NCBI GenBank assembly: GCA_030390025.1
Contig: JASTWF010000034.1
Span: 2,666,001 to 2,730,000 of the forward strand
DNA from: Squalus acanthias
Lineage: Eukaryota
DNA length: 64,000 nucleotides
Direction: 5' to 3'
Position numbers and translations under genes: made by a program. The number at the start of each line of letters is the position of its first letter. The first letter of the stretch is position 1. The notes under the pieces are model-generated. The model had not been told where the DNA came from and searched no databases. It saw only the letters and a program-made list of their open reading frames with translations. Below are positions 875-12,238 of the stretch, one piece after another.

Positions 875-3099
875 GGAGTTTCTCTGCATCCTCCTCACAA
901 CACACACGTTTGTCGTCTGCAAAGTTGGAGATATTACATCTAGTTCCCTCGTCTAGATCATTAATATAGAATGTGAATAACTGGGGTCCTAGCACCGATT
1001 GCTGCGGTACCCCACTAGTCACTGCCTGCCACTCGGAAAAAGACCCGTTTATTCAAACTCTTTGCTTCCTGTCTGCCAAACAGTTCTCTATCCAAGTCGG
1101 TACCTTACACCCAGTCCCATGTGATTTAACTTTGCACGCCAATCTCTTATGTGGGAGCTTATCGAAAGCCTTCTGAACGTCCAAATACACCACATCCACT
1201 GGTTCTCCCTGATCTATTCTACCAGTTACATCCTCAAAAAATTCCAGTAGATTAGTCAAGCTTGATTTACCTTTTGTAAATCTATGTTGACTTTGTCCGA
1301 TCCTGTCACTGTTTTCCAAGTGCTCTGCTTTTACATTTTTTATAATGGACTCTAGCATTGTCCCCACTACCGATGTCAGGCTTACTGGTCTATGATACCC
1401 CGTTTTCTCTCTCCCACCTTTTTTAAATCGTGGGGTTACATTAGCTACCCTCCAATCCATGGGAACTGTTCCAGAGTGTACACAATTTTGAAAGATGCCC
1501 AGCAATGCATCTACTATTTCTAGGGCCACTTCCCTAAGTACCCTAGGATGTAGATTATCAGGCCCTGCGGATTTATCGGGCTTTAATCCCGTCAATTTCC
1601 CTAACACCATTTCCCTACAAATACTGATTTCATTCAGTTCTTCCCTCTCATTAGACCCTATGTTACCTGACATCTCTGGGAGGTTATGTGTGCCCTCCTT
1701 TGTAAAGACAAAACCAAAGTATGTATTAATAGAAACATAGAAACATAGAAGATAGGCCCAGGAGTAGGCCATTCGGCCCCTCGAGCCTGCTCCGCCATTT
1801 AATGAGATCATGGCTGATCATCCAAATTCAGTACCCTGTTTTCACCCCATATCCCTTGATCACTTTAGCCTTGATAAATATATCTAACTCCTTCTTGAAT
1901 ATATTTAATGAATTGGCCTCAACTGCCTTCTGTGGTAGAGCATTCCACAGTTTCACCACTCTCTGGGTGAAGAAATTCCTCCTCATCTCAGTCCAAAATG
2001 GCTTTCCAGTTATCCTCAGACAGTGACCCCTGGTTCTGGACTCCCCCGCCATCGGAAACATCCTTCCTGCATCTAGTCTGTCTAGTCCTGTTAGAATGTT
2101 ATAAGTTTCAATGAGATCCCCTCAAATTCTTCTAAAATCTAGCGAATACAAGCCCAATCGTCCCAATCTCTCTTCATACGTAATTCCTGTCATCCCAGGT
2201 AGCAGTCTGGTGAATCTTCGCTGCACTCCCTCCATGGCAAGAACATCCTTCCTCAGATAAGGCGACCAAAACTGTACATTGGTCAGCCATTTCTTTGTTC
2301 CCCATTATAAATTCCCCTGATTCTGACTGCAAGGGGCCTAAGCTTGACTTCACCAATCTTTTTCTCTTCACATTTCTATAGAAGCTTTTACATTCAGTTT
2401 TTATGTTCCCTGAAAGCTTACTCTCATACTCTATTTTCCCCCTCTTAATTAATCCCTTTGTCCTCCTTTGCTGAATCCTAAACTGCTCCCAATCCTCATG
2501 TTTGCTGCTTTTTCTGGCCAATTTATATGTCCACTCCTTGAATCTTACGTTATCCCTAATTTCCCTTGTTAGCCACGATTGAGTCATCTGTTTGGTTTTA
2601 TTTTTATGCCAAACAGGGATGAACAGATTCTGTAGTTCATCCATGCGATCTTTAAATGTTTGCCATTGCCTATCCACCATTAACCATTTAAGTAACTTTC
2701 CCCAATCCATCCTAGCCAATTCGCGCCTCATACCATCGTAGTTTCCTTTATTTAAATTCATGACCCTAGTTTTTGAGTCAACTACTGCACACTCCATCTA
2801 AATGAAGAATTCTATCATATTATGATCGCTCCTCCCCAAGGGGCCTCACACAACAAGATTGCTAATTAATCATTTCCCATTACATAATGCCCAGTCTAAA
2901 ATGGCCTGATCTCGAGTTCGTTCTTCGACATATTGGTCCAGAAAACCATTCACTATACAGTCTAGGAAATTCCTCCTTCACAGTATTGTTACTAATTTGG
3001 TTAGCCCAATCTATATGTAGATTAAAGTCACCCATGATAACTGCTGTGTCCTTATTGCACGCGTCTCTAATATCCCATTTAATGCCATCCCCAACCTCA
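875..3099 (-). mobile_element. Degraded CR1/HER1-like LINE (endonuclease end, linker, RT), lacking its own 3' end and interrupted at 1729-2278
   Basis: ORFs 2174..2797, 1053..1811 and 807..1022 (-) carry DWRVANVTP, YHRPVSLTS, KAFDK, SGVPQ.SVLGP and FADD. Collinear with the copy at 10034-12238. Contains frameshifts and stops. Confidence 0.93.
1729..2278 (-). mobile_element. 5'-truncated CR1/HER1-like 3' end nested inside a same-family LINE
   Basis: (ATAGAAAC)n tail at 1729-1750, conserved 3' UTR and ORF2 C-terminus (TRGH...FFTQRVV.LWNALP). Host sequence 'gtatgtattaat|tggtcagccatt' is contiguous in the paralog at ~11726-11750. Confidence 0.9.
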
Positions 3100-3741
3100 G
3101 CATATGTTTTATATGTGCTATGGACTCAGGACTATTAATATAAGATATATGTAATAAAGATGAATTTGACGTGTATGGATCTCCCTGCTCAAGGCAATGG
3201 CGCGAAACTTAACAATTGAAACCTGCATAACAGGATACCCCCCCACAGAGACAGCATCGAAAACCCATCGAAACTCACCATCGAAACTCAAGTGCCATTA
3301 AAAGGTGTTAACAAACAATTAACTTAATCAAGAAATGGCACCAGACACATGTTCAAAGGAAAGCCAAACAAGAACTGCCATAAAACTTAGCCCCAATCCT
3401 TGGGTCTTAGCAATTTAGACTGGAGACAGTGGACTCAAAATGATATAAAATAAGAAACCTAAAGACTCTCATTCTCTCTGGAGGACCACGTGGAAAAGCA
3501 GGAAGCCCTCCCTCTACAGACCAGACCAAGAAGCAAGGAAAAAGACCGCGTGCATTGCTTGACTCAGGAAAGTACAAGTCTGTTTAAATCAAACCCATTG
3601 CCTTACCTGTTGTAATCGAGTAGAGTCCATAGGATATCAGTAGGCTATTGTTTTGATGTGCATGAGTGTGTGTGTTCCAAGTTGTTTCAAATGAATTGGT
3701 CTTGCTGTCAATGTAATGCCAGTCGATATAAAAAGCTTACA
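3100..3741 (+). repeat. 5' LTR (left boundary uncertain, abuts CR1)
   Basis: 3210-3741 aligns with 7945-8497. TATAAAA at 3444-3450. Ends in CA just before the PBS. 3100-3209 is assigned by position only. Confidence 0.8.
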
Positions 3742-3745
3742 AAAC

Positions 3746-3763
3746 TGCTGGCTCGTCCAGGAT
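3746..3763 (+). promoter_or_regulatory. Primer binding site, tRNA-Pro type
   Basis: TGCTGGCTCGTCCAGGAT matches the canonical tRNA-Pro PBS TGGGGGCTCGTCCGGGAT at 15/18 positions, 4 nt after the LTR end. Confidence 0.85.
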
Positions 3764-3867
3764 GTGGCGAGACAGCTTTAGATCATTGTTTTAAACAATT
3801 GGACATTTCGGGAGTTGTGATTCTAACCTGTGGTGCGAGGTTTAAAAGTAAATTCAAAAGACGCAGA

Positions 3868-5750
3868 ATGAAGGGATCGGGGGCACACAAAAAGACAGCA
3901 AAATACGTAGATGTAGCCTTCAATGAGAACATATACGAAAAGCTGTCCATAAGGAACTTACAAGAGTTACGGGCACGATGCATCTGTAAGGGCCAACATG
4001 CATCCAGGAGAGGATATATGAAGGAAAGCTAAGGCCCAGACAGGCAAACGGTCTCTTGGCATTCTGGGCATATTACTGTGCTCGGAGAGATGAGGAATTA
4101 ATGAGGCAGGATGCAAAAGAGATTCAAGATTTAAAGGGAGAGATACAAGATTTAAAAGAACTAAAAGTCAAAGAGATTCAACTAAAATAAAAAGAAATTC
4201 AAAGTATGAAAGAACAGAAAGAAGAAGGCATCCAGCTTGTTAGGCTGTTAAAGGAGGGTGAAATCCAAAATTTGAGACAAGAAATCAATCGATTTAGACA
4301 CAGTATCAGGCAATTATAAAGAGGTGCGGAGCAGGCAGCTTCGTTGCTACAGCAACAAAGCCTCTCACATTTAAATGCAGGAGCAGCCGGCGCTGCAACA
4401 AATGAAACGAGATTGGCACTCAAGAAATATAAATTGGAAAACCTGGGGCTCGGGCAGGAAGTAGAAGACTTTAGGGGGGCATTAAGGGAAGCAATTAAGA
4501 AGCCACTTAGGGAGGCAGACCACTCCCGGTGCAACCTAGAAATAGCGCGGCTAAAGAGTAAATTTGGGCAGGAACAGGCTCGAGTATCTGCAGTAACACG
4601 GGTAGTCATAACAGAGACACCAGAAGGGGACGAGGGGGAGACAAATTGGGAAGAGGAAAGCAGTCAGTATAATCCCCAAGATGACGATGAAGGATGGGAG
4701 ACAATAGGGCCAACCGCAGCAGTAGTGACCACCTCTTTACGGCATAATGTGCATGATCACATGACGAGTAACCATACCGACTCACGGCCCATATCTGGTG
4801 CCGAAACCACGGCGTGTAGCCACGAGTTAGGGCCCATTAATGATGGGGACGCCCCACTAGTAGTTAATAGAATTTCAGGAGGAGTCGCCCCGAGTTAGAA
4901 GAGGGTGACTTAACATGAGTTCTCCTCTTGGTCTGTTTCACTTCTTTAAACAATAATTTGCCATACGCGATCCTCCAGTGTGGCACAGCGACCGATGCTG
5001 TCGTGACCGAGATCCTAAACCACTTAGGGATCCAAAACTTAAACTTAGTGGCTATGCTTAATCAGACCAAACAGCGCCCAGATGAGACCCCGAGAGCGTT
5101 CAGTAATCGCCTGTACGATATCTATGAACGTCCCCAGAACCAGGCACCCGCAAATGCTGCAGCAGGAAAGAATCAGGAACAATTCAAAACGATGTTCCTG
5201 ACCCAGCTCCACTCTTTAGTTAAAACCACACTGGGTATAGCCCTGAGGCCCGCCGATCAGTGGACAGACATAGAGATTAACGTTTAAAGAGCCTGGGAGA
5301 TGGTAAAAGACCAGTTAAAAGTGAAGTCACCACCCACCGCAAAGAAAGCAGTGTCAGCGGTGGAGGGATCTAGGTACTTCCGCTTTAGGGGACAGTGGCT
5401 TTAATTGTAAGCAGGAAGGTCACCTCGCAAAACGCTGCAGGCGACCCAGACAGGCACCGGACCTCGATGCAACGCATAGATAGCTCCCGAGGGACGAACC
5501 CAAACCCTCTGGGATAGAAAAACAATTGGCTCAGTTACTTACCTTTCTAAAAAAGGACGAATCCAAGTCCTCTGGGACGGATCAACGATTGGACCAGTTG
5601 ATAACCCTCATGAAAGCCCAAATTGTCACGGGGGGGATGCAAAATAATTTACCGGTGCTTGCAATCGCCAGTGCACACCCATTGGGAATGCAAATTCCTA
5701 TTGTCAAAGCACACCCATTGGAGGGACCCCTCCAAGGATCCACCCTATGA
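3868..5750 (+). pseudogene. gag: gag remnant: K/E-rich coiled-coil-like N-terminus, capsid MHR-like motif, CCHC knuckle
   Basis: KQRPDETPRAFSNRLYDIY in ORF 4928..5287. C-FNCKQEGHLAKRC at ~5396-5438 with a 1-nt frameshift. Multiple stops and frameshifts; start codon uncertain. Confidence 0.8.
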
Positions 5751-7944
5751 CAGGGTTTGGCCCCCAAAGATTGGTCGGAAGTGGGGTTCCGACGTGATGG
5801 TAGCGAGAGACCAGTAGTCCTTGTTGTCTTAAAAGGGGGCCGGCAGCAGATTATGCTTATAGACACTGGCTCAGCCGTTACCATCATGCACAACACATAC
5901 CCTGAACGCCATGCAGCGGCGGGCAAGGGTTGTATGGCACTTAAAGGGTTGTTGGTGATACAACCACCGCATATACAGGGAAGACCTCTGAACTTCATTT
6001 GGGAGGCCTCATCTGTAAGGTCCCAGCGCCAATGCTGATGACCACCCCCGACGGAAGGGGAACTTTAGGGACTGATGTGTTGGATCATTATGGTGCGGTA
6101 ATAGATTACAATCCGGACTGTGTTTGGATTGAGAAATAATGCAAAAGTGATAGAAATTTCAGATGCTCACTCGGTTTTTGCTATTATAATGCCATCCGAG
6201 TATGACCCTCCAGGGAGCGAAAAGGAAGCTGCGGCAAAACTAATTCAGGAACACCTAGCGGTGTTTGCCACGTGCAAGCACGATTGTGGAAAAATGGCAG
6301 GCGAAGAGTCTATTGAGGGACACCCCCACTCATTCAGCAAACAGTACCACATCCCAAGGGAGAGTCACCCGAGACAACATAAAATCTCTAGTCGAGCAGG
6401 GTGTTGTTAGGACAGGTACTTTCACAATCAATTCACCCACATGGCCGGTTAAAAAGCCTGATGGCAGCTGGTGACTGAGTATTGATTACAGAAAGTTAAA
6501 TCCTGTAACGCCAGTCTGCTCACCGGTAGTAAGTGAAGCTCCCACCATATTATCTCAAATTCCTGATGATTCCAAGTACTACTCGACCCTCGACATTGCC
6601 AATTGATTCTGGAGTTTCCCTTTTAAAAGGGAGGACCAGTTAAATTCGCGTTCACAGTTGAGGACCAGAGCTACACCTGGACATGCCTGCCTCAGGGGTT
6701 CCACAATGCCCCCACGATCTTCCACAAAAGAATGGCTGCGATTTTAAAAGACTTTTCCCGCCCTACCTGCTTGCTACAGTACGTAGACGTCCTACTGCTG
6801 GCAACCGATAACATGGAGGAGCATCTGTCCCTTTTGCACGAACTGTTGACATTGTTGGCTCAGGCGGGACTAAAGGTGAATCCCCGTAAGGCTCAGTTGG
6901 TAAAAGAACGGGTCACCTTTCTAGGAGTGTCCATTTCTCCAGGGCGATCGTCCCCCGACTCCTACAAGGTGGAGATAATACAGCGACTACCATTACCCAC
7001 TTCCATAACAGCCCTACGATCATTCTTGGGTTTGGTGGGCTACCAAAGGAACTTTATCCCAGTCTTTGCAGAATGCGCAAAGCCCCTGTATGATTTGATT
7101 AAACTGCAGTGTGATGACATACGCCCGGCATGGACTAATGATCACACCCAGTCCGTGGCCAAATTAAAACCTGCAGTGACACAGGCCGCATGTCTTATTC
7201 CTCCAGTCCCACGCAGCCCTTCCATTTGGAGGTCGGGGCCACAGAAAAAATCCTCGCCGCAGTTCTGTGCGAAACGCCAGCTAATCGACGACAGCGCGTT
7301 GCATATGCATCTCGAATCCTGCAGGGGGCAGAAAAGACGTATACCGCGTGTGAGCGCCACCTGCTGGCCGTCTCTGGGCGATACATAATTTTACCTTTAT
7401 TTCTGGGCTACAAGAGACCATCCTTCACAGCGCTCACACGCCTCTGAACCTACTGATGAAACCTGGATATTCGCTAGTTTCCTCGCAGCGCCTCAGCAAA
7501 TGGACATTGAATTTATGGAAAGAGACATTGGTATCATTTCCAAACCCACCACATTGCTGCCACAATTTCTGGTTTATGCAGGGGAACCGCATAAATGTCC
7601 GCTACCCCTGATTAACTTTGAGACCTATCCTGTGCAGAAAGACCCCATACAGGGAGCCCCAGATGTGTACGTCGATGGGTCCTCATATCACATCGAGGGA
7701 ATCCCTCCACACCGGGTATGCTGTGGTATTGGCAGAGAGAACAATCCAGCGACGATGCAACCAACAGTCCACACAATATGCAGAAAAAGCCGCACTTCTA
7801 ACCGCCATGAAAGACAACTCAGAAAGACCCGTGAATATTTGGTCTGATAGTGCCTATGCTATAAACACCATGCTCTCCTTGCCCTTATACCACAAAAATG
7901 ACTACCGTACAATAGACTGTAAGGCACTGGTCCATGGGCCCTGG
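5751..7944 (+). pseudogene. pol: pol remnant: aspartic protease, reverse transcriptase, degenerate RNase H (tether), truncated RNase H; no integrase
   Basis: LIDTGS (DTG at 5862-5870), TLGTDVL, NSPTWPVKKPDGSW, IDYRKLN, WTCLPQGFHNAP, QYVDV (YVDD mutated, 6780-6791), LRSFLGLVGY, VAYASR, VYVDGSS (~7665-7685), QYAE, NIWSDSAY. Confidence 0.93.
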
Positions 7945-8497
7945 TAACAACGGAAACCTGCATAACAGGATAACCCCCACAGAGACACCATCGAAATTCA
8001 AGAGGCACTAAACGGTGTCAACAAACAATTAACTTAAGCAAGACATGGTACCAGCCACTGCAGACAGACACATGTTTAAAGGAAAGCCAATCAAGAACTG
8101 CCATGAAAGTAAGACCCAATACTGGGGTCATAGCAATTTAGACCAGAGACAATTGACTTAAAAATATATAAAACAAGGAATTCAAAGGCTCTCTCTCTCT
8201 CTCTCTCTCCGGATTGCCACGCAGAAAAACAAGAAGCCCCCCCCTCCCCCCCACCCTCTACAGACCAGACTAAGCAGCAAGGAAAAAGGCCGCGTGCATT
8301 GCTTGATTCAGGGAAGGACAAGTCTCTGTAAATCTAAGCCATTACCTTACGTGCTGTAATCGAGTAGAGTCCATAATTAAAAGGAGTCTATTGTTCTGAT
8401 GTGCATAAGTGTGTGTGTTTAATTAACTTCTTCCAAATTGTTTCAAAAGAATTGGTCTTGCTGTTAATTAAATGCCAGTCGAAATATAATGCTTACA
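7945..8497 (+). repeat. 3' LTR, left-truncated, fused to RNase H coding sequence
   Basis: Homologous to 3210-3741. TATA at ~8165-8173, (CT)n tract, ends GCTTACA directly against satellite. Confidence 0.9.
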
Positions 8498-10033
8498 ACT
8501 CTCTACACCGGGGAATAAAGTTAAAGTTAATGTTAGTTTGACATGATGCCATCTGCACCGGGGAATAAAGTTACAGTTAATTGTGAATTTGACATAATTC
8601 GATCTACGGCGGGGAATAAAGTTACAGTAAATTGTTAATTTGACATGATAACCTCTACAACGGGAAATACATTTACAGTCAATTGATAATTTGACATGAT
8701 GCCCTCTACACCGGGGAATAAAGTTATAGTTAATTTTTAATTCCACATGATTCAATCTACAACAGGGAATAAAATTACAGTTAATTGTTAATTTGATATA
8801 ATAGCCTCCACACCGGGGAATAAATTAACAGTTAATTGTTAATTTGGAAATGATGCCCTCGACACAAAGGAATAAAGTTACAGTCAATTTTTATTTTGAA
8901 ATGATACCCTCTAGAACATGTAATAAATGAACAGTTATTTGGTAATTTGACATGATACACTCAACACCAGGTAATAAATTAACAGTTAATTGTTAATTTG
9001 ACATGATGCCCGCTACACCGGGGAATGAATTTACAGTTAATTGTTAATTTAGACATGATGCCCTCTACACAAGGTAGTAAAGTTAAAGTTAATTGTTAAC
9101 TTCACATGATACCCTCCACAACAGGGAATAAAATTACAGTTAATTGCTAATTTGACATGATACCATCTACACCAGGGAATAAAATTTACGTTAATTGTTA
9201 ATTTGACATGATTCCCTTTACACTGTGGAATAAAGTTACAGTTAACAGTTAATTAGACATGTTACCCTCTACACCGGGGAATAAAGTTACAGTAAATTGT
9301 TAATTTGACATGATACCCTCTACACCAGGGAATAAATTTACCGTGAATTTTTAATTTGAGATCACACCCTCAACACCGGGGAATAAGTTTCAGTTAATTG
9401 TTAACTTAGACATGATGCCCTCTACACCTGGGTATCAAGTTACAATTAATTTATAATTTGACATGATAACCTCCACACCGGGGAATAAAGTTACATTTAA
9501 TTGTTAATTTAGTCATGATACCCTCCTCAATGTGGAATAAATTTGCAGTTAATTGTTAATTTGACATGGTGCACTTTACAACGGGGAATAAAGTAAAAGT
9601 TAATGGTTAATTTGTCATGATGCACTCTACAGTGGAAGCAAATTTACAGTTAATTGTTAATAATACATCATGCTCTCTACACCGGCGACTAAATTGGCAG
9701 TTAATTGTTATTTTAGATATGACACCCTGTACACTGGTGAATAAAGTTGCAGTTAATTGTTAATTTAGAAATGATGCCCTCTACACAAGGTAATAGTCTT
9801 ACAGTTACTTGTTAATTTGTCATGATAACCTCTACACCAGGGAATAAAATTAAAGTTAATTGTTAATTTAGACATGATATCCTTTGCACATGTGGAAAAA
9901 AGTTACACTTATTTGTTAATTAGACATGACAACCTCTGAACTGGGGAATAAAGCTACAATTAATTTTTAGTTTATATGATACCCTCTACACCGGGGAATA
10001 AAGTTACAGTTAATTGTTAATTTGACATGATAC

Positions 10034-12238
10034 AATCATAGAATCGTAGAAGATAGGAGCAGGAGTAGGCCATTCGGCCCCTCGAGCCTGCTCCGCCATT
10101 CAATGAGATCATGGATCATCATTCAAATTCAGTACCCTGTCCCTGCCTTCTCCCCATATCCCTTGATCCCTTTAGCCTTAAGAAATATATCTAACTCCTT
10201 CTGTGGTAGAGAATTCCACAGGTTCACCACTCTTTGGTTGAAGAAATTCCTCCTCATCGCTGTCCTAAATGGCTTACTTATTATCCTTAGACTGTGACCC
10301 CTGGTTCTGGAAACCCCGGCCATCGGGAACATCCTTCCTGCATCTAGTCTGTCTAGTCCTGTTAGAATTTTATAAGTTTCAATGATCTCCCTCTAATTCT
10401 TGTAAACTCCATCGAGTATAAGCCCAATCGACGCAATCTCTCATCATACGTCATTCCTGCCATCCCAGGTATCAGTCTGGTGAATCTTCGCTGCACTCCC
10501 TCCATGGCAAGAACATATTTCCTCAGATAAGGCGAACAAAACTGCAAACAATACTCAAGATGTGGTCTCACCAAGGCTCTGTACAACTGCAGCAAGACAT
10601 CCTTGTTCCAGTACTCGTACCCTCTCGCTACGAAGGCCAACATACCATTTGACTTCTTAACCGCATGCTGCACCTGCATGCTGACCTTCAGCGACTGGTG
10701 CACAAGGACTCCCAGGTCTTGTTGCACTTCCCCTTCTCCCAATCTATTGCCGTTCAGATAATAACCTGTCTTCCTGTTTTTGCCACCAAAGTGGATAACC
10801 TCGCGATTATCCACATTGCACTGCATTTGGCATGCAGCTGCCCAATCACCCAACCTATCCAATACATATTGGAGTTTCTCGGCATCCTCCTCAGAGCACA
10901 CACGCCCACCCAACATTGTGTCGTCTGCAAACTTGGAGATATTACATCTAGTTCCCTCGTCTAGATCATTAATATATATTGTGAATAGCTGGGTTACTAG
11001 GACCGATCCCTGCGGTACCCCACTAGTCACTGCCTGCCACTCGGAAAAAGACACGTTCATCCAACTCTTTGCTTCCTGTCTGCCAAACAGTTCTCTATCC
11101 AAGTCAGTACCCTGCCCCCAATCCCATGTGCCTCAACTTGACACGCTAATCTGTTATGCAGGACATTTTCGAAAGCCTTCTGAAATTCCAAATACACATC
11201 ATCCACTGATTCTCCCTTATCTATTTTACCAGTTACATCCTCAAAAAATTCCAGTAGATTAGTCAAGCACGATTTACCTTTTGTAATTCCATGTTGACTT
11301 TGACCGATCCTGTCACTGTTTTCCAAGTGCACTGCTATTACATCTTTTATAATGGTCTCTAGCATTTTCCCCACTGCCGATGTCAGGCTTACTGGTCTAA
11401 AATTCCCCGTTTTCTCTCTACGACCTTTTTTGAATAGTGAGGTAACATTAGCTACCCTCCAATCCATGGGAACTGCTCCAGAGACTATAGAATTTTGGAA
11501 GATGAGCAGCAATGCATCTACTATTTCTAGGGCCACTGCCTTAAGCACCCTAGGTTGTAGATTATCAGGCCCTGGGAATTTATCGGCCTTCAATCCCGTC
11601 AATTTCCCTAACACCATTTCCCTACAAATACTTATTTCTTTCAGTTCCTCCCTCTCATTCGACCCTATGTTCTCTGACATCTCTGGGAGGTTATTTGTGT
11701 CCTCCTTTGTGAAGACAGAACCAAAGTATGTATTTAATTGGCCTGCCATTTCTTTGTTCCCCATTATAAATTCCCCTGATTCTGACTGCAAGGTGCCTAC
11801 GCTTGACTTCACCAATCTTTTTCTCTTCACATATCTATAGACGCTTTTACAGTCAGTTTTTATGTTCACTGAAATCTTACTCTCATACTCTATTTTCCCC
11901 CTCTTAATTAATCACTTTGTCCTCCTTTGCTGAATCCTAAACTGCTCCCAATCCTCAGGTTTGCTGCTTTTTCTTGCCAATATAAATGTCCTCTCTTGGA
12001 TCTTATGCTATCCCTAATTTCCCTTGTAAGCCACGTTTGATTCACATTTTTTGTTTTATTTTTATGCCAAACAGGGATGAACAAATTCTGTAGTTCATCC
12101 ATGCGATCTTTAAATGTTTGCCATTGCCTATCCACCGTCAACCCTTTGAGTAACATTCCCCAATCAATCCTTCCCAATTCGCACGTCATACCATCGTAGT
12201 ATCCTTTATTTAAATTCAGGACCCAGTCTCGAATCGAC
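10034..12238 (-). mobile_element. 5'-truncated CR1/HER1-like LINE (~2.2 kb) inserted in satellite
   Basis: ORFs 11908..12291, 11057..11869, 10362..11102 and 10129..10332 (-) give RT motifs GVPQGSVL, FADD and LVRPHLEYC. 3' UTR and (ATAGAATC)-type tail at 10034. The satellite monomer resumes in phase. Confidence 0.95.

What the first reader, a model, noticed from the sequence alone, without database searches (positions are those of the whole stretch)
7190..7944. Dual RNase H pol: possible deep-branching (loki-like or class III-like) endogenous retrovirus in a probable shark/ray
Seen: after RT there is an RNase H-fold region that still looks strongly Ty3/Gypsy-like (PFHLEVGAT...AAVL...VAYASRIL.GAEKTYTACERHLLA...ILHSAHTPL...SQRLSKW). 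It has lost the Asp of both the DAS and TDH motifs. A second RNase H follows with intact D-E-D (VYVDGSS, QYAE, WSDS). Established: tether plus second RNase H marks Retroviridae, their sister lokiretroviruses and Odin elements, not ordinary Gypsy. Inference: the well-preserved Gypsy-like tether, LPQGFHN-P/YVDD-type RT and CCHC gag suggest a basal lineage. To my recollection lokiretroviruses were reported from lampreys, bony fishes, amphibians and reptiles, so a chondrichthyan member would be notable.
Basis: partly seen in the sequence, partly recalled or inferred. Interest (0 to 1): 0.75.

Follow-up and report, generated by a model that had tools for sequence, protein, structure and literature searches.

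The report
Shark retrovirus relic, not a lokiretrovirus
This is a broken copy of a many-copy retrovirus in a shark or ray genome whose enzymes likely belong to a lineage already described in elephant shark rather than to lokiretroviruses, but whose fuller sister copies carry an envelope predicted to resemble foamy-virus and measles-type fusion proteins, unlike the described member.

Summary
After RT comes a Gypsy-like RNase H fold lacking both catalytic Asp (a tether), then a second RNase H with D-E-D. The window copy is dead: stops, frameshifts, and a deletion of integrase and env.

The host is a chondrichthyan (AChE test). The family has at least 40 scored copies, a tRNA-Pro primer site and 4-bp target duplications.

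The lokiretrovirus reading fails. RT and RT+tether trees put it inside canonical Retroviridae, next to a Xenopus tropicalis Pol; an AU test rejects grouping with loki (p=1.7e-6). Read by eye, elephant-shark CmiERV lineage I (Han 2015, SnRV-related) is about 69% identical in RT, with the same tether, RNase H and integrase signatures.

What remains of note:
- The tether is as Gypsy-like as loki's.
- A few sister copies carry an Env homologous to snakehead retrovirus Env and predicted to be F-type, whereas CmiERV-I has a gamma-type Env, implying an Env swap.
- 27 of 39 fetched copies share one env deletion, consistent with env-less spread inside the genome.

Verdict: new variant of a known class III-like lineage.

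The parts
3102..3741 (+). 5' LTR (first ~16 nt missing relative to sister copies; ends ...CTTACA)
   Evidence: Boundaries from alignment with 20 sister loci
3746..3763 (+). Primer binding site, tRNA-Pro type (degenerate here)
   Evidence: Sister copies show the clean site; it matches the 3' end of genomic tRNA-Pro genes
3868..5750 (+). gag, broken; coiled-coil-like N-terminal part, one CCHC knuckle near 5400-5441; ends in a stop in frame with pol (readthrough inferred)
   Evidence: Frames; zf-CCHC E=5.5e-4; longer open stretches in sisters
5751..6135 (+). Aspartic protease, broken
   Evidence: DTG motif; Pfam protease hits in sister L032
6259..7189 (+). Reverse transcriptase, broken (LPQGFHNAP; YVDV)
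   Evidence: RVT_1 E=1e-19; stops and frame changes against P0001
7190..7600 (+). Tether: degenerate Gypsy-type RNase H fold without its catalytic Asp
7660..7944 (+). Second RNase H, truncated at its C-terminal end
   Evidence: RNase_H E=2e-7; RNase H tree
7945..7950 (+). Deletion junction: end of RNase H, integrase, env region, polypurine tract and start of the LTR are absent here
   Evidence: Most sisters have about 1.8 kb between this point and the 3' LTR
7945..8497 (+). 3' LTR, 5'-truncated, of a different LTR subtype from the 5' LTR
   Evidence: 86% identity, K2P 0.15, to the 5' LTR; 96% to L132 and 91% to L125

Best explanation
This is a dead, internally deleted copy of a multi-copy endogenous retrovirus family of a shark or ray, likely belonging to the canonical-retrovirus, class III-like lineage of elephant-shark CmiERV lineage I and a Xenopus tropicalis element, which likely entered the germ line as an enveloped virus with a predicted F-type Env and then likely multiplied mostly as an env-deleted retrotransposon. 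Shown: the LTR-PBS-gag-pro-RT-tether-RNase H layout, integrase and env in sister copies, one shared env deletion in most copies, and the tree position outside loki. Inferred from known retroviral biology: priming by tRNA-Pro, pol made by readthrough of the gag stop, a structural role for the tether with catalysis in the second RNase H, and integration with 4-bp duplications. Inferred from the copies: a short-homology deletion removed most of env once, and that form amplified inside cells. The window copy later lost integrase and was duplicated as a block with the neighbouring 51-bp satellite. The Env class differs from CmiERV-I, so one of the two swapped its envelope.
For: RT tree, 64 rows, 240 columns (SH-aLRT/UFBoot): family + P0122 + P0001 98.8/100; canonical retroviruses without loki 93.8/99; loki 99.9/100. 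RT+tether tree, 42 rows: family + P0001 99.9/100; canonical clade 99.4/97. Mixture model, 29 rows: same result; AU rejects family+loki p=1.7e-6 and the six-row clade + loki p=0.0066. The RNase H tree puts it away from loki and foamy (SH-aLRT 93). CmiERV_Scaffold 2 read by eye: about 82 of 119 RT residues identical, against 83 for P0122, 83 for P0001, 63 for SnRV and 53-57 for loki. Host AChE scores 999 bits against the PDB entries I recall as Torpedo, 778 against the next entry and about 690 against mammalian ones. Env: hhalign to SnRV Env E=2e-5 over 351 columns in register at the furin site, against E=0.2 for foamy Env; best structural match foamy Env Z 8.2, rmsd 3.6, 152 aligned, with eight F proteins in ranks 2-11; every listed Foldseek PDB row is an F protein; no gamma-type ISD motif in 25 env loci. 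Env state of 39 RNase-H-selected copies: 27 one shared deletion, 3 two other deletions, 1 interrupted, 2 long env, 6 no env region. TSD 4 bp in 2 of 2 copies with both ends resolved; LTR K2P 0.014 and 0.037.
Against: CmiERV-I could not be put in my trees; that link is a by-eye reading. The tie to SnRV itself is weak: 55.5/56 in the RT tree, not recovered in RT+tether, AU p=0.13. Sisterhood of the six-row clade with foamy viruses is only borderline (p=0.053). The integrase tree places loki integrases among this group's relatives (SH-aLRT 93, quick tree). The Env model is poor (mean pLDDT 40.5) and was built on a related family's Env about 45% identical; Z 8.2 is near the background the tool warns of; no Foldseek PDB match reached E 0.001; Pfam Fusion_gly was hit by only 4 of 24 members, best E=0.026; Atlas recognition scores were low; plain BLASTP to SnRV Env gave E=0.19 at best. 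No Odin sequence was in the trees.
Confidence: 0.85

Rival explanations
1. It is the first chondrichthyan lokiretrovirus, or an Odin-like element.
For: Tether as Gypsy-like as loki's; F-like Env; integrase near loki's; coiled-coil-like gag start; six chondrichthyan genomes are unstarred in the loki paper's Table S2 (that the star marks presence is my inference).
Against: AU p=1.7e-6 and 0.0066; loki-type rows and the published Odin rows have a PFGY-type RT motif where this has LPQGF; its RNase H is not in the loki/foamy group; SnRV and foamy viruses also have F-like Env; Odin has no env.
Confidence: 0.03
2. It is a separate, unnamed early-branching clade of canonical retroviruses (shark, frogs, coelacanth) that contains CmiERV-I but is no closer to SnRV than to other groups, so that 'SnRV-like' is a sampling label.
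For: A six-row clade without SnRV is supported in RT+tether (96.4/80; 96) and sits in the basal polytomy of canonical retroviruses; SnRV moves between trees.
Against: The RT-only tree and FastTree place SnRV next to it; AU does not reject the union (p=0.13); the Env is homologous to SnRV Env. This differs from the best reading in naming, not in mechanism.
Confidence: 0.35
3. It is a foamy-like ERV (FLERV) of sharks.
For: Best Env fold match is foamy Env; shark and frog FLERVs are reported to cluster (PMC5512871); AU p=0.053 for sisterhood.
Against: In all best trees it lies outside the foamy clade, which holds C. milii P0197 (probably CmiFLERV, inferred from the accession offset); 42% RT identity to foamy against 70% to P0001; ordinary protease, CCHC knuckle, gag and pol in one frame.
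Confidence: 0.05
4. The env-deleted majority kept a working 79-residue membrane protein from the env tail that aids cell-to-cell spread, so the deletion was a change of function rather than a loss.
For: The main deletion and a second independent one both leave the env start codon in frame with the transmembrane helix and basic tail.
Against: Two in-frame events occur by chance about 1 time in 9; shared-variant omega 0.45 (8 nonsynonymous, 5 synonymous) against private 0.71 has no power and resembles integrase (0.49 against 0.75); no signal peptide remains in the main form.
Confidence: 0.08

Closest known systems
CmiERV lineage I of elephant shark (Han 2015, PMC4422223; text part 1 of 2, supplement part 1 of 3 read)
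   Same: About 69% RT identity over 119 residues; same tether, RNase H and integrase signatures, coiled-coil-rich gag with one CCHC (all read by eye); chondrichthyan host.
   Different: Its env reads as gamma-type (ISD-like LQNRMALD followed by CX6CC; hallmark recalled) and its primer site is different; this family has a predicted F-type Env, a tRNA-Pro site and an env-deleted majority.
Xenopus tropicalis Pol P0001 (UniRef A0A803JYW4), probably one of the frog SnRV-like elements of PMC4131045 (passages; identity of the element not shown)
   Same: Best named hit: 66% in RT, 51% over RT-tether-RNase H; sister or nearest named row in the RT, RT+tether, RNase H and integrase trees.
   Different: Amphibian host; its env and primer site could not be retrieved.
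Snakehead retrovirus (SnRV; L033/P0131, matched to the SnRV row in the PMC9040795 supplement) and clade Huo (PMC6001957 passages)
   Same: Class III-like RT (54% over 117 residues), gag and pol in one frame, homologous Env with the same F-like Atlas neighbours.
   Different: SnRV's tether is far more degenerate (46 against 91 bits), its Env is longer, it has further 3' ORFs, and the Pol trees do not firmly join them.
Lokiretroviruses (PMC7947760; text parts 1-3 of 4, supplement passages) and Odin (PMC9040795; parts 1-2 of 4, supplement passages)
   Same: Dual RNase H with Gypsy-like tether, similar integrase, F-like Env in loki.
   Different: Different RT clade and motif, different RNase H group; Odin lacks env.
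Foamy viruses and FLERVs (PMC5512871 section 5 and passages; PMC11468914 passages)
   Same: F-related (class Ib) Env fold is the best structural match.
   Different: Outside the foamy RT clade; no spumavirus protease; CCHC knuckle present.

Membership tests
Retroviridae (canonical) | RT inside the canonical retrovirus clade | tested here: met
   93.8/99, 99.4/97, 98
Retroviridae (canonical) | LTR-PBS-gag-pro-RT-tether-RNase H-IN-env-PPT-LTR layout with target duplication | tested here: met
   Sister copies; the window copy lacks IN, env and PPT
Lokiretrovirus | RT monophyletic with lokiretroviruses | tested here: not met
   AU p=1.7e-6, 0.0066; loki rows labelled by motif and host, not the published consensus sequences
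Lokiretrovirus | Dual RNase H (tether plus new RNase H) | tested here: met
   shared by all retroviruses
Lokiretrovirus | New RNase H in the loki + foamy group | tested here: not met
   Quick tree, 142 columns, SH-aLRT 93 for the split
Lokiretrovirus | Integrase of the loki/CGIN1 group | tested here: inconclusive
   Family + P0001 unresolved near the base; loki nests among other relatives at 93; no CGIN1 row
Lokiretrovirus | Env related to paramyxo/pneumovirus F | tested here: met
   Moderate evidence; not diagnostic, since SnRV and foamy Env share it
Odin retrotransposons | No env gene | tested here: not met
   Env in L030, L032, L103, L105, L106, L108
Odin retrotransposons | RT in the Odin clade | not testable with these tools
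CmiERV lineage I / SnRV-related clade Huo | Pol closest to CmiERV lineage I | tested here: met
   By-eye reading, about 82 of 119 RT residues plus shared signatures; not placed in a tree
CmiERV lineage I / SnRV-related clade Huo | Pol forms a clade with SnRV | tested here: inconclusive
   55.5/56; not recovered; AU p=0.13
CmiERV lineage I / SnRV-related clade Huo | Same Env type as CmiERV-I (gamma-type ISD + CX6CC) | tested here: not met
   ISD motif in 0 of 25 env loci; Env homologous to SnRV's instead
Spumaretrovirinae / FLERV | RT nested in the foamy clade | tested here: not met
   Outside it; sisterhood of the wider clade is not rejected (p=0.053)
ERV4 (Chong et al. 2014, PMC4299795 passages) | No gag zinc finger and 5-bp TSD | tested here: not met
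   CCHC present; 4-bp TSD in 2 of 2 copies; no ERV4 reference in the trees
Ty3/Gypsy (Metaviridae) | Single active Gypsy RNase H and RT among Gypsy elements | tested here: not met

The most novel reading that the evidence does not exclude
The shark-frog-coelacanth clade is the most conservative living branch of canonical retroviruses. It keeps a loki-grade Gypsy-like tether, a loki-type integrase and an F-type (class Ib) Env shared with SnRV, foamy viruses and loki. The F-type Env would then be ancestral to all retroviruses and the gamma-type Env a later replacement, caught in the act within one shark Pol lineage (CmiERV-I gamma-type, this family F-type).
Probability: 0.3. Interest if true: 0.65.

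Novelty: new variant of a known kind. Interest (0 to 1): 0.36.

Why it matters
The headline hope, a shark lokiretrovirus, is not borne out, and class III-like ERVs are known to be common in cartilaginous fishes. The remaining value is for the open question of where retroviral Env came from. The loki paper lists four scenarios and found no overall similarity between loki Env and canonical Env; the foamy Env structure paper treats orthoretroviral Env as class Ia. A canonical-retrovirus lineage outside foamy viruses, plus SnRV, with a predicted F-type Env would favour an F-type ancestor and makes Env replacement testable within one Pol lineage. I found no paper stating this for SnRV or shark ERVs (searches; term look-ups), but the library lacks most subscription papers. 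Earlier agents of this scan reached the same reading for related families in this genome, so the idea is not unique to this locus.

Tried and rejected
- Dating from the window's own LTR pair (K2P 0.15): rejected, because the two LTRs are of different subtypes and the locus is a duplicated block.
- Identifying the best Xenopus hit with Loki-Xtr or XtrFLERV: four LPQG-type motifs, including its own, have no occurrence in the part of the loki supplement held (line breaks can hide matches); XtrFLERV is a single EST whose sequence I did not see.
- Single-sequence Env fold: pLDDT 35.5, not used.
- Env homolog search among longer proteins: none of 1993 candidates scored (weak evidence).
- Env against PDB by sequence: nothing significant.
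- Family RT in viral contigs: no match.
- Host test with shark ERV proteins P0239 and P0190: only 35-57% matches, uninformative for the host.
- Full 121-row RT tree: timed out without supports, so it was pruned to 64 rows; the support labels printed were shifted by re-rooting and were re-read by bipartition.
- Selection on the 79-residue env remnant: inconclusive.
- PMC9972966 (cartilaginous-fish endogenous foamy virus) is not held; the supplement of PMC12440569 is not available; the last 18 of 318 pages of the loki supplement were not held. Their alignments could bear on the naming of this clade.
- Earlier-findings look-ups by sequence and by words returned nothing.

Full report
What is in the window. 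Bases 3102-8497 hold one LTR element in a region that is 81% tandem repeat, mainly a 51-bp satellite, with LINE fragments. Pfam finds a CCHC knuckle, RT, the Gypsy-type RNase H fold at 7142-7444 and a second RNase H at 7612-7944. The copy is dead: pol has stops and frame changes, the RT motif reads YVDV, and the second RNase H runs straight into a truncated LTR.

The family. A 345-base RNase H query found 153 candidates in the 3.7-Gb genome, of which 40 were scored: the window itself, one at 99% and 38 at 92-94%. An LTR query gave 489 candidates. I fetched the 39 scored places other than the window. Most carry about 1.8 kb that the window lacks: the end of RNase H, an integrase (H2C2 and rve), a short env remnant and a polypurine tract. 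The LTRs run TGTAAG to CTTACA. The primer site matches genomic tRNA-Pro. Two copies with both ends resolved have 4-bp target duplications and LTR distances of 0.014 and 0.037; that is 14-37 My at the catshark rate used in PMC10699275 or 32-84 My at the rate used in PMC4422223. The window's own LTR pair (0.15) cannot be dated: its 3' LTR is 96% like that of L132, which repeats window 4002-10030 at 92% together with the satellite.

The tether. Both catalytic Asp positions are non-Asp in the family and in all retroviral rows shown, and Asp in the three Gypsy rows. A dual RNase H is common to all retroviruses (PMC7947760), so it does not point to loki.

Placement. References came from tools only. 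P0131 and L033 are SnRV, by match to the SnRV row of the PMC9040795 supplement. Foamy, gamma, epsilon and class II genomes came from IMG/VR (group labels from motifs, Pfam and recalled lengths). Loki rows are fish and lamprey proteins with the PFGY-type RT motif that the published Odin rows also show. In the 64-row RT tree the family joins P0122 and the Xenopus tropicalis Pol P0001 (98.8/100), then frog and coelacanth proteins (93.3/73), SnRV (55.5/56), a wider class III-like set with ERV-L-like rows (96.9/82), and all canonical retroviruses (93.8/99); loki is a separate clade. RT+tether trees agree on the family + P0001 pair, a six- to seven-row shark-frog-coelacanth clade and the exclusion of loki, but move SnRV elsewhere. 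AU tests reject family+loki (p=1.7e-6) and clade+loki (p=0.0066), and do not reject clade+SnRV (0.13) or clade+foamy (0.053). The RNase H tree separates it from loki and foamy; the integrase tree leaves it unresolved near the base, with loki integrases among its relatives (quick trees).

A described relative. Han 2015 reported three lineages in elephant shark, lineage I clustering with SnRV. Its sequence in the supplement, translated by eye, gives about 82 of 119 identical RT residues against L016, equal to the closest database rows (83 each for P0122 and P0001; SnRV 63; loki 53-57). It shares a distinctive RT octapeptide with P0122 and the tether, RNase H and integrase signatures of this family. 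I could not place it in a tree. Clade III ERVs are also the majority of ERV RT loci in six chondrichthyan genomes (PMC11089739).

Host. The genome's acetylcholinesterase scores 999 bits against PDB entries I recall as Torpedo, 778 against the next entry and about 690 against mammalian ones. The host is a chondrichthyan, probably an elasmobranch. A loki Pol query gave at most 36% identity among 58 scored places; three of the four top loci showed the LPQGF motif and one showed no motif match. No true loki was seen, within the limits of a stricter search.

Env. An env query found 11 places, 5 of them over most of its length. L030, L032, L103, L105, L106 and L108 link env to this family's LTR and integrase at about 90% or more. 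All are broken. The frame shows a signal peptide, a basic cleavage site, a hydrophobic peptide, helices, a Cys-rich part and a transmembrane tail. A protein query found 123 matches at 33-100%. Of 12 stretches fetched around related envs, 10 held pol (47-69% in the main blocks), in each case scoring higher to this family and P0001 than to loki or SnRV. A profile of 24 natural stretches aligns to SnRV Env in register across the cleavage site (E=2e-5, probability 77%) and barely to foamy Env (E=0.2). A low-confidence model of a related family's Env (pLDDT 40.5) matches foamy Env best (Z 8.2, rmsd 3.6, 152 residues) followed by paramyxo- and pneumovirus F proteins. The Atlas gives Baculo_F, Gypsy env and Fusion_gly clusters at 0.93-0.94 for this Env and for SnRV Env alike, with low recognition scores. 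Each line is weak; together they indicate an F-type Env. CmiERV-I instead reads as gamma-type, and none of 25 env loci here has that ISD motif. One of the two lineages therefore swapped its envelope.

How it spread. Of the 39 copies, 27 share one env deletion, 3 carry two other deletions, 1 is interrupted, 2 have a long env and 6 lack the region. The main junction has a short homology, as expected of a template switch (inference). One env-deleted ancestor thus produced most sampled copies, the pattern of intracellular retrotransposition (known for env-less ERVs; recalled). The deletion leaves a 79-residue frame with the transmembrane helix; a selection test had no power.

Literature seen. PMC7947760: text parts 1-3 of 4, supplement part 1 and searches. 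PMC9040795: parts 1-2 of 4, supplement passages. PMC4422223: part 1 of 2, supplement part 1 of 3 and passages. PMC10699275: parts 1-2 of 4. PMC5512871: section 5, passages, supplement passages. Passages only: PMC6001957, PMC12440569, PMC4977317, PMC4131045, PMC4299795, PMC11089739, PMC11468914, PMC12583693, PMC13709493, bioRxiv 10.1101/2023.10.26.564294. Listing only: PMC11521997.

Verdict. Observation confirmed; loki reading not supported. It is a new variant of a known class III-like shark lineage, of moderate interest because of its Env type. Notes of earlier agents on related families in this genome say much the same; they are not independent evidence.

Noticed in passing
window 8498-64000: A 51-bp satellite (with a 103-bp higher-order period) covers about 81% of the window, interrupted by LINE fragments; the provirus end and the satellite are duplicated together in L132.
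   Followed up: partly
window 1053-3097 and 10030-12224, minus strand: Two decayed LINE copies (RT/endonuclease-like frames), 89-94% alike over shared blocks; one abuts the 5' LTR where its first bases are missing.
   Followed up: no
G000, many contigs: A different class III-like family, 53% identical to Heterodontus P0190, has many copies with near-identical scores and open gag-pol frames of about 1700 residues, so it is very young.
   Followed up: no
G000, 123 matches; L133-L169: A radiation of related ERV families shares the same F-type Env at 33-60% identity and the same Pol lineage; several env frames are long and open.
   Followed up: partly
G000:C19:18097282-18123687: Five primer sites of this family spaced about 6.6 kb apart: a tandem array of a shortened provirus.
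   Followed up: no
L014 oriented 8341-9999: The gag of another LTR element (coiled coil, CCHC) with a different primer site lies 3 kb downstream of a family copy.
   Followed up: no
L014 6310-6897 and L018 818-1969 (-): Frames that look like Harbinger-type transposase (my recall, not tested) next to family copies.
   Followed up: no
L015 6585-9998 (-): An ordinary Gypsy element with an open 1138-residue pol has inserted into a family copy.
   Followed up: no
L030 / L113: An LTR of the same family sits inside the env gene of this copy.
   Followed up: partly
G000:C26:40.5-41.3 Mb: Long tandem arrays with a 1623-bp period that contain the tRNA-Pro 3' end; 543 exact matches genome-wide.
   Followed up: no
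P0003, P0004, P0123, P0322: Frog and coelacanth members of this retroviral clade are annotated 'NYNRIN-like', and loki integrases nest among them; the clade may bear on the origin of the CGIN1/NYNRIN integrase.
   Followed up: partly
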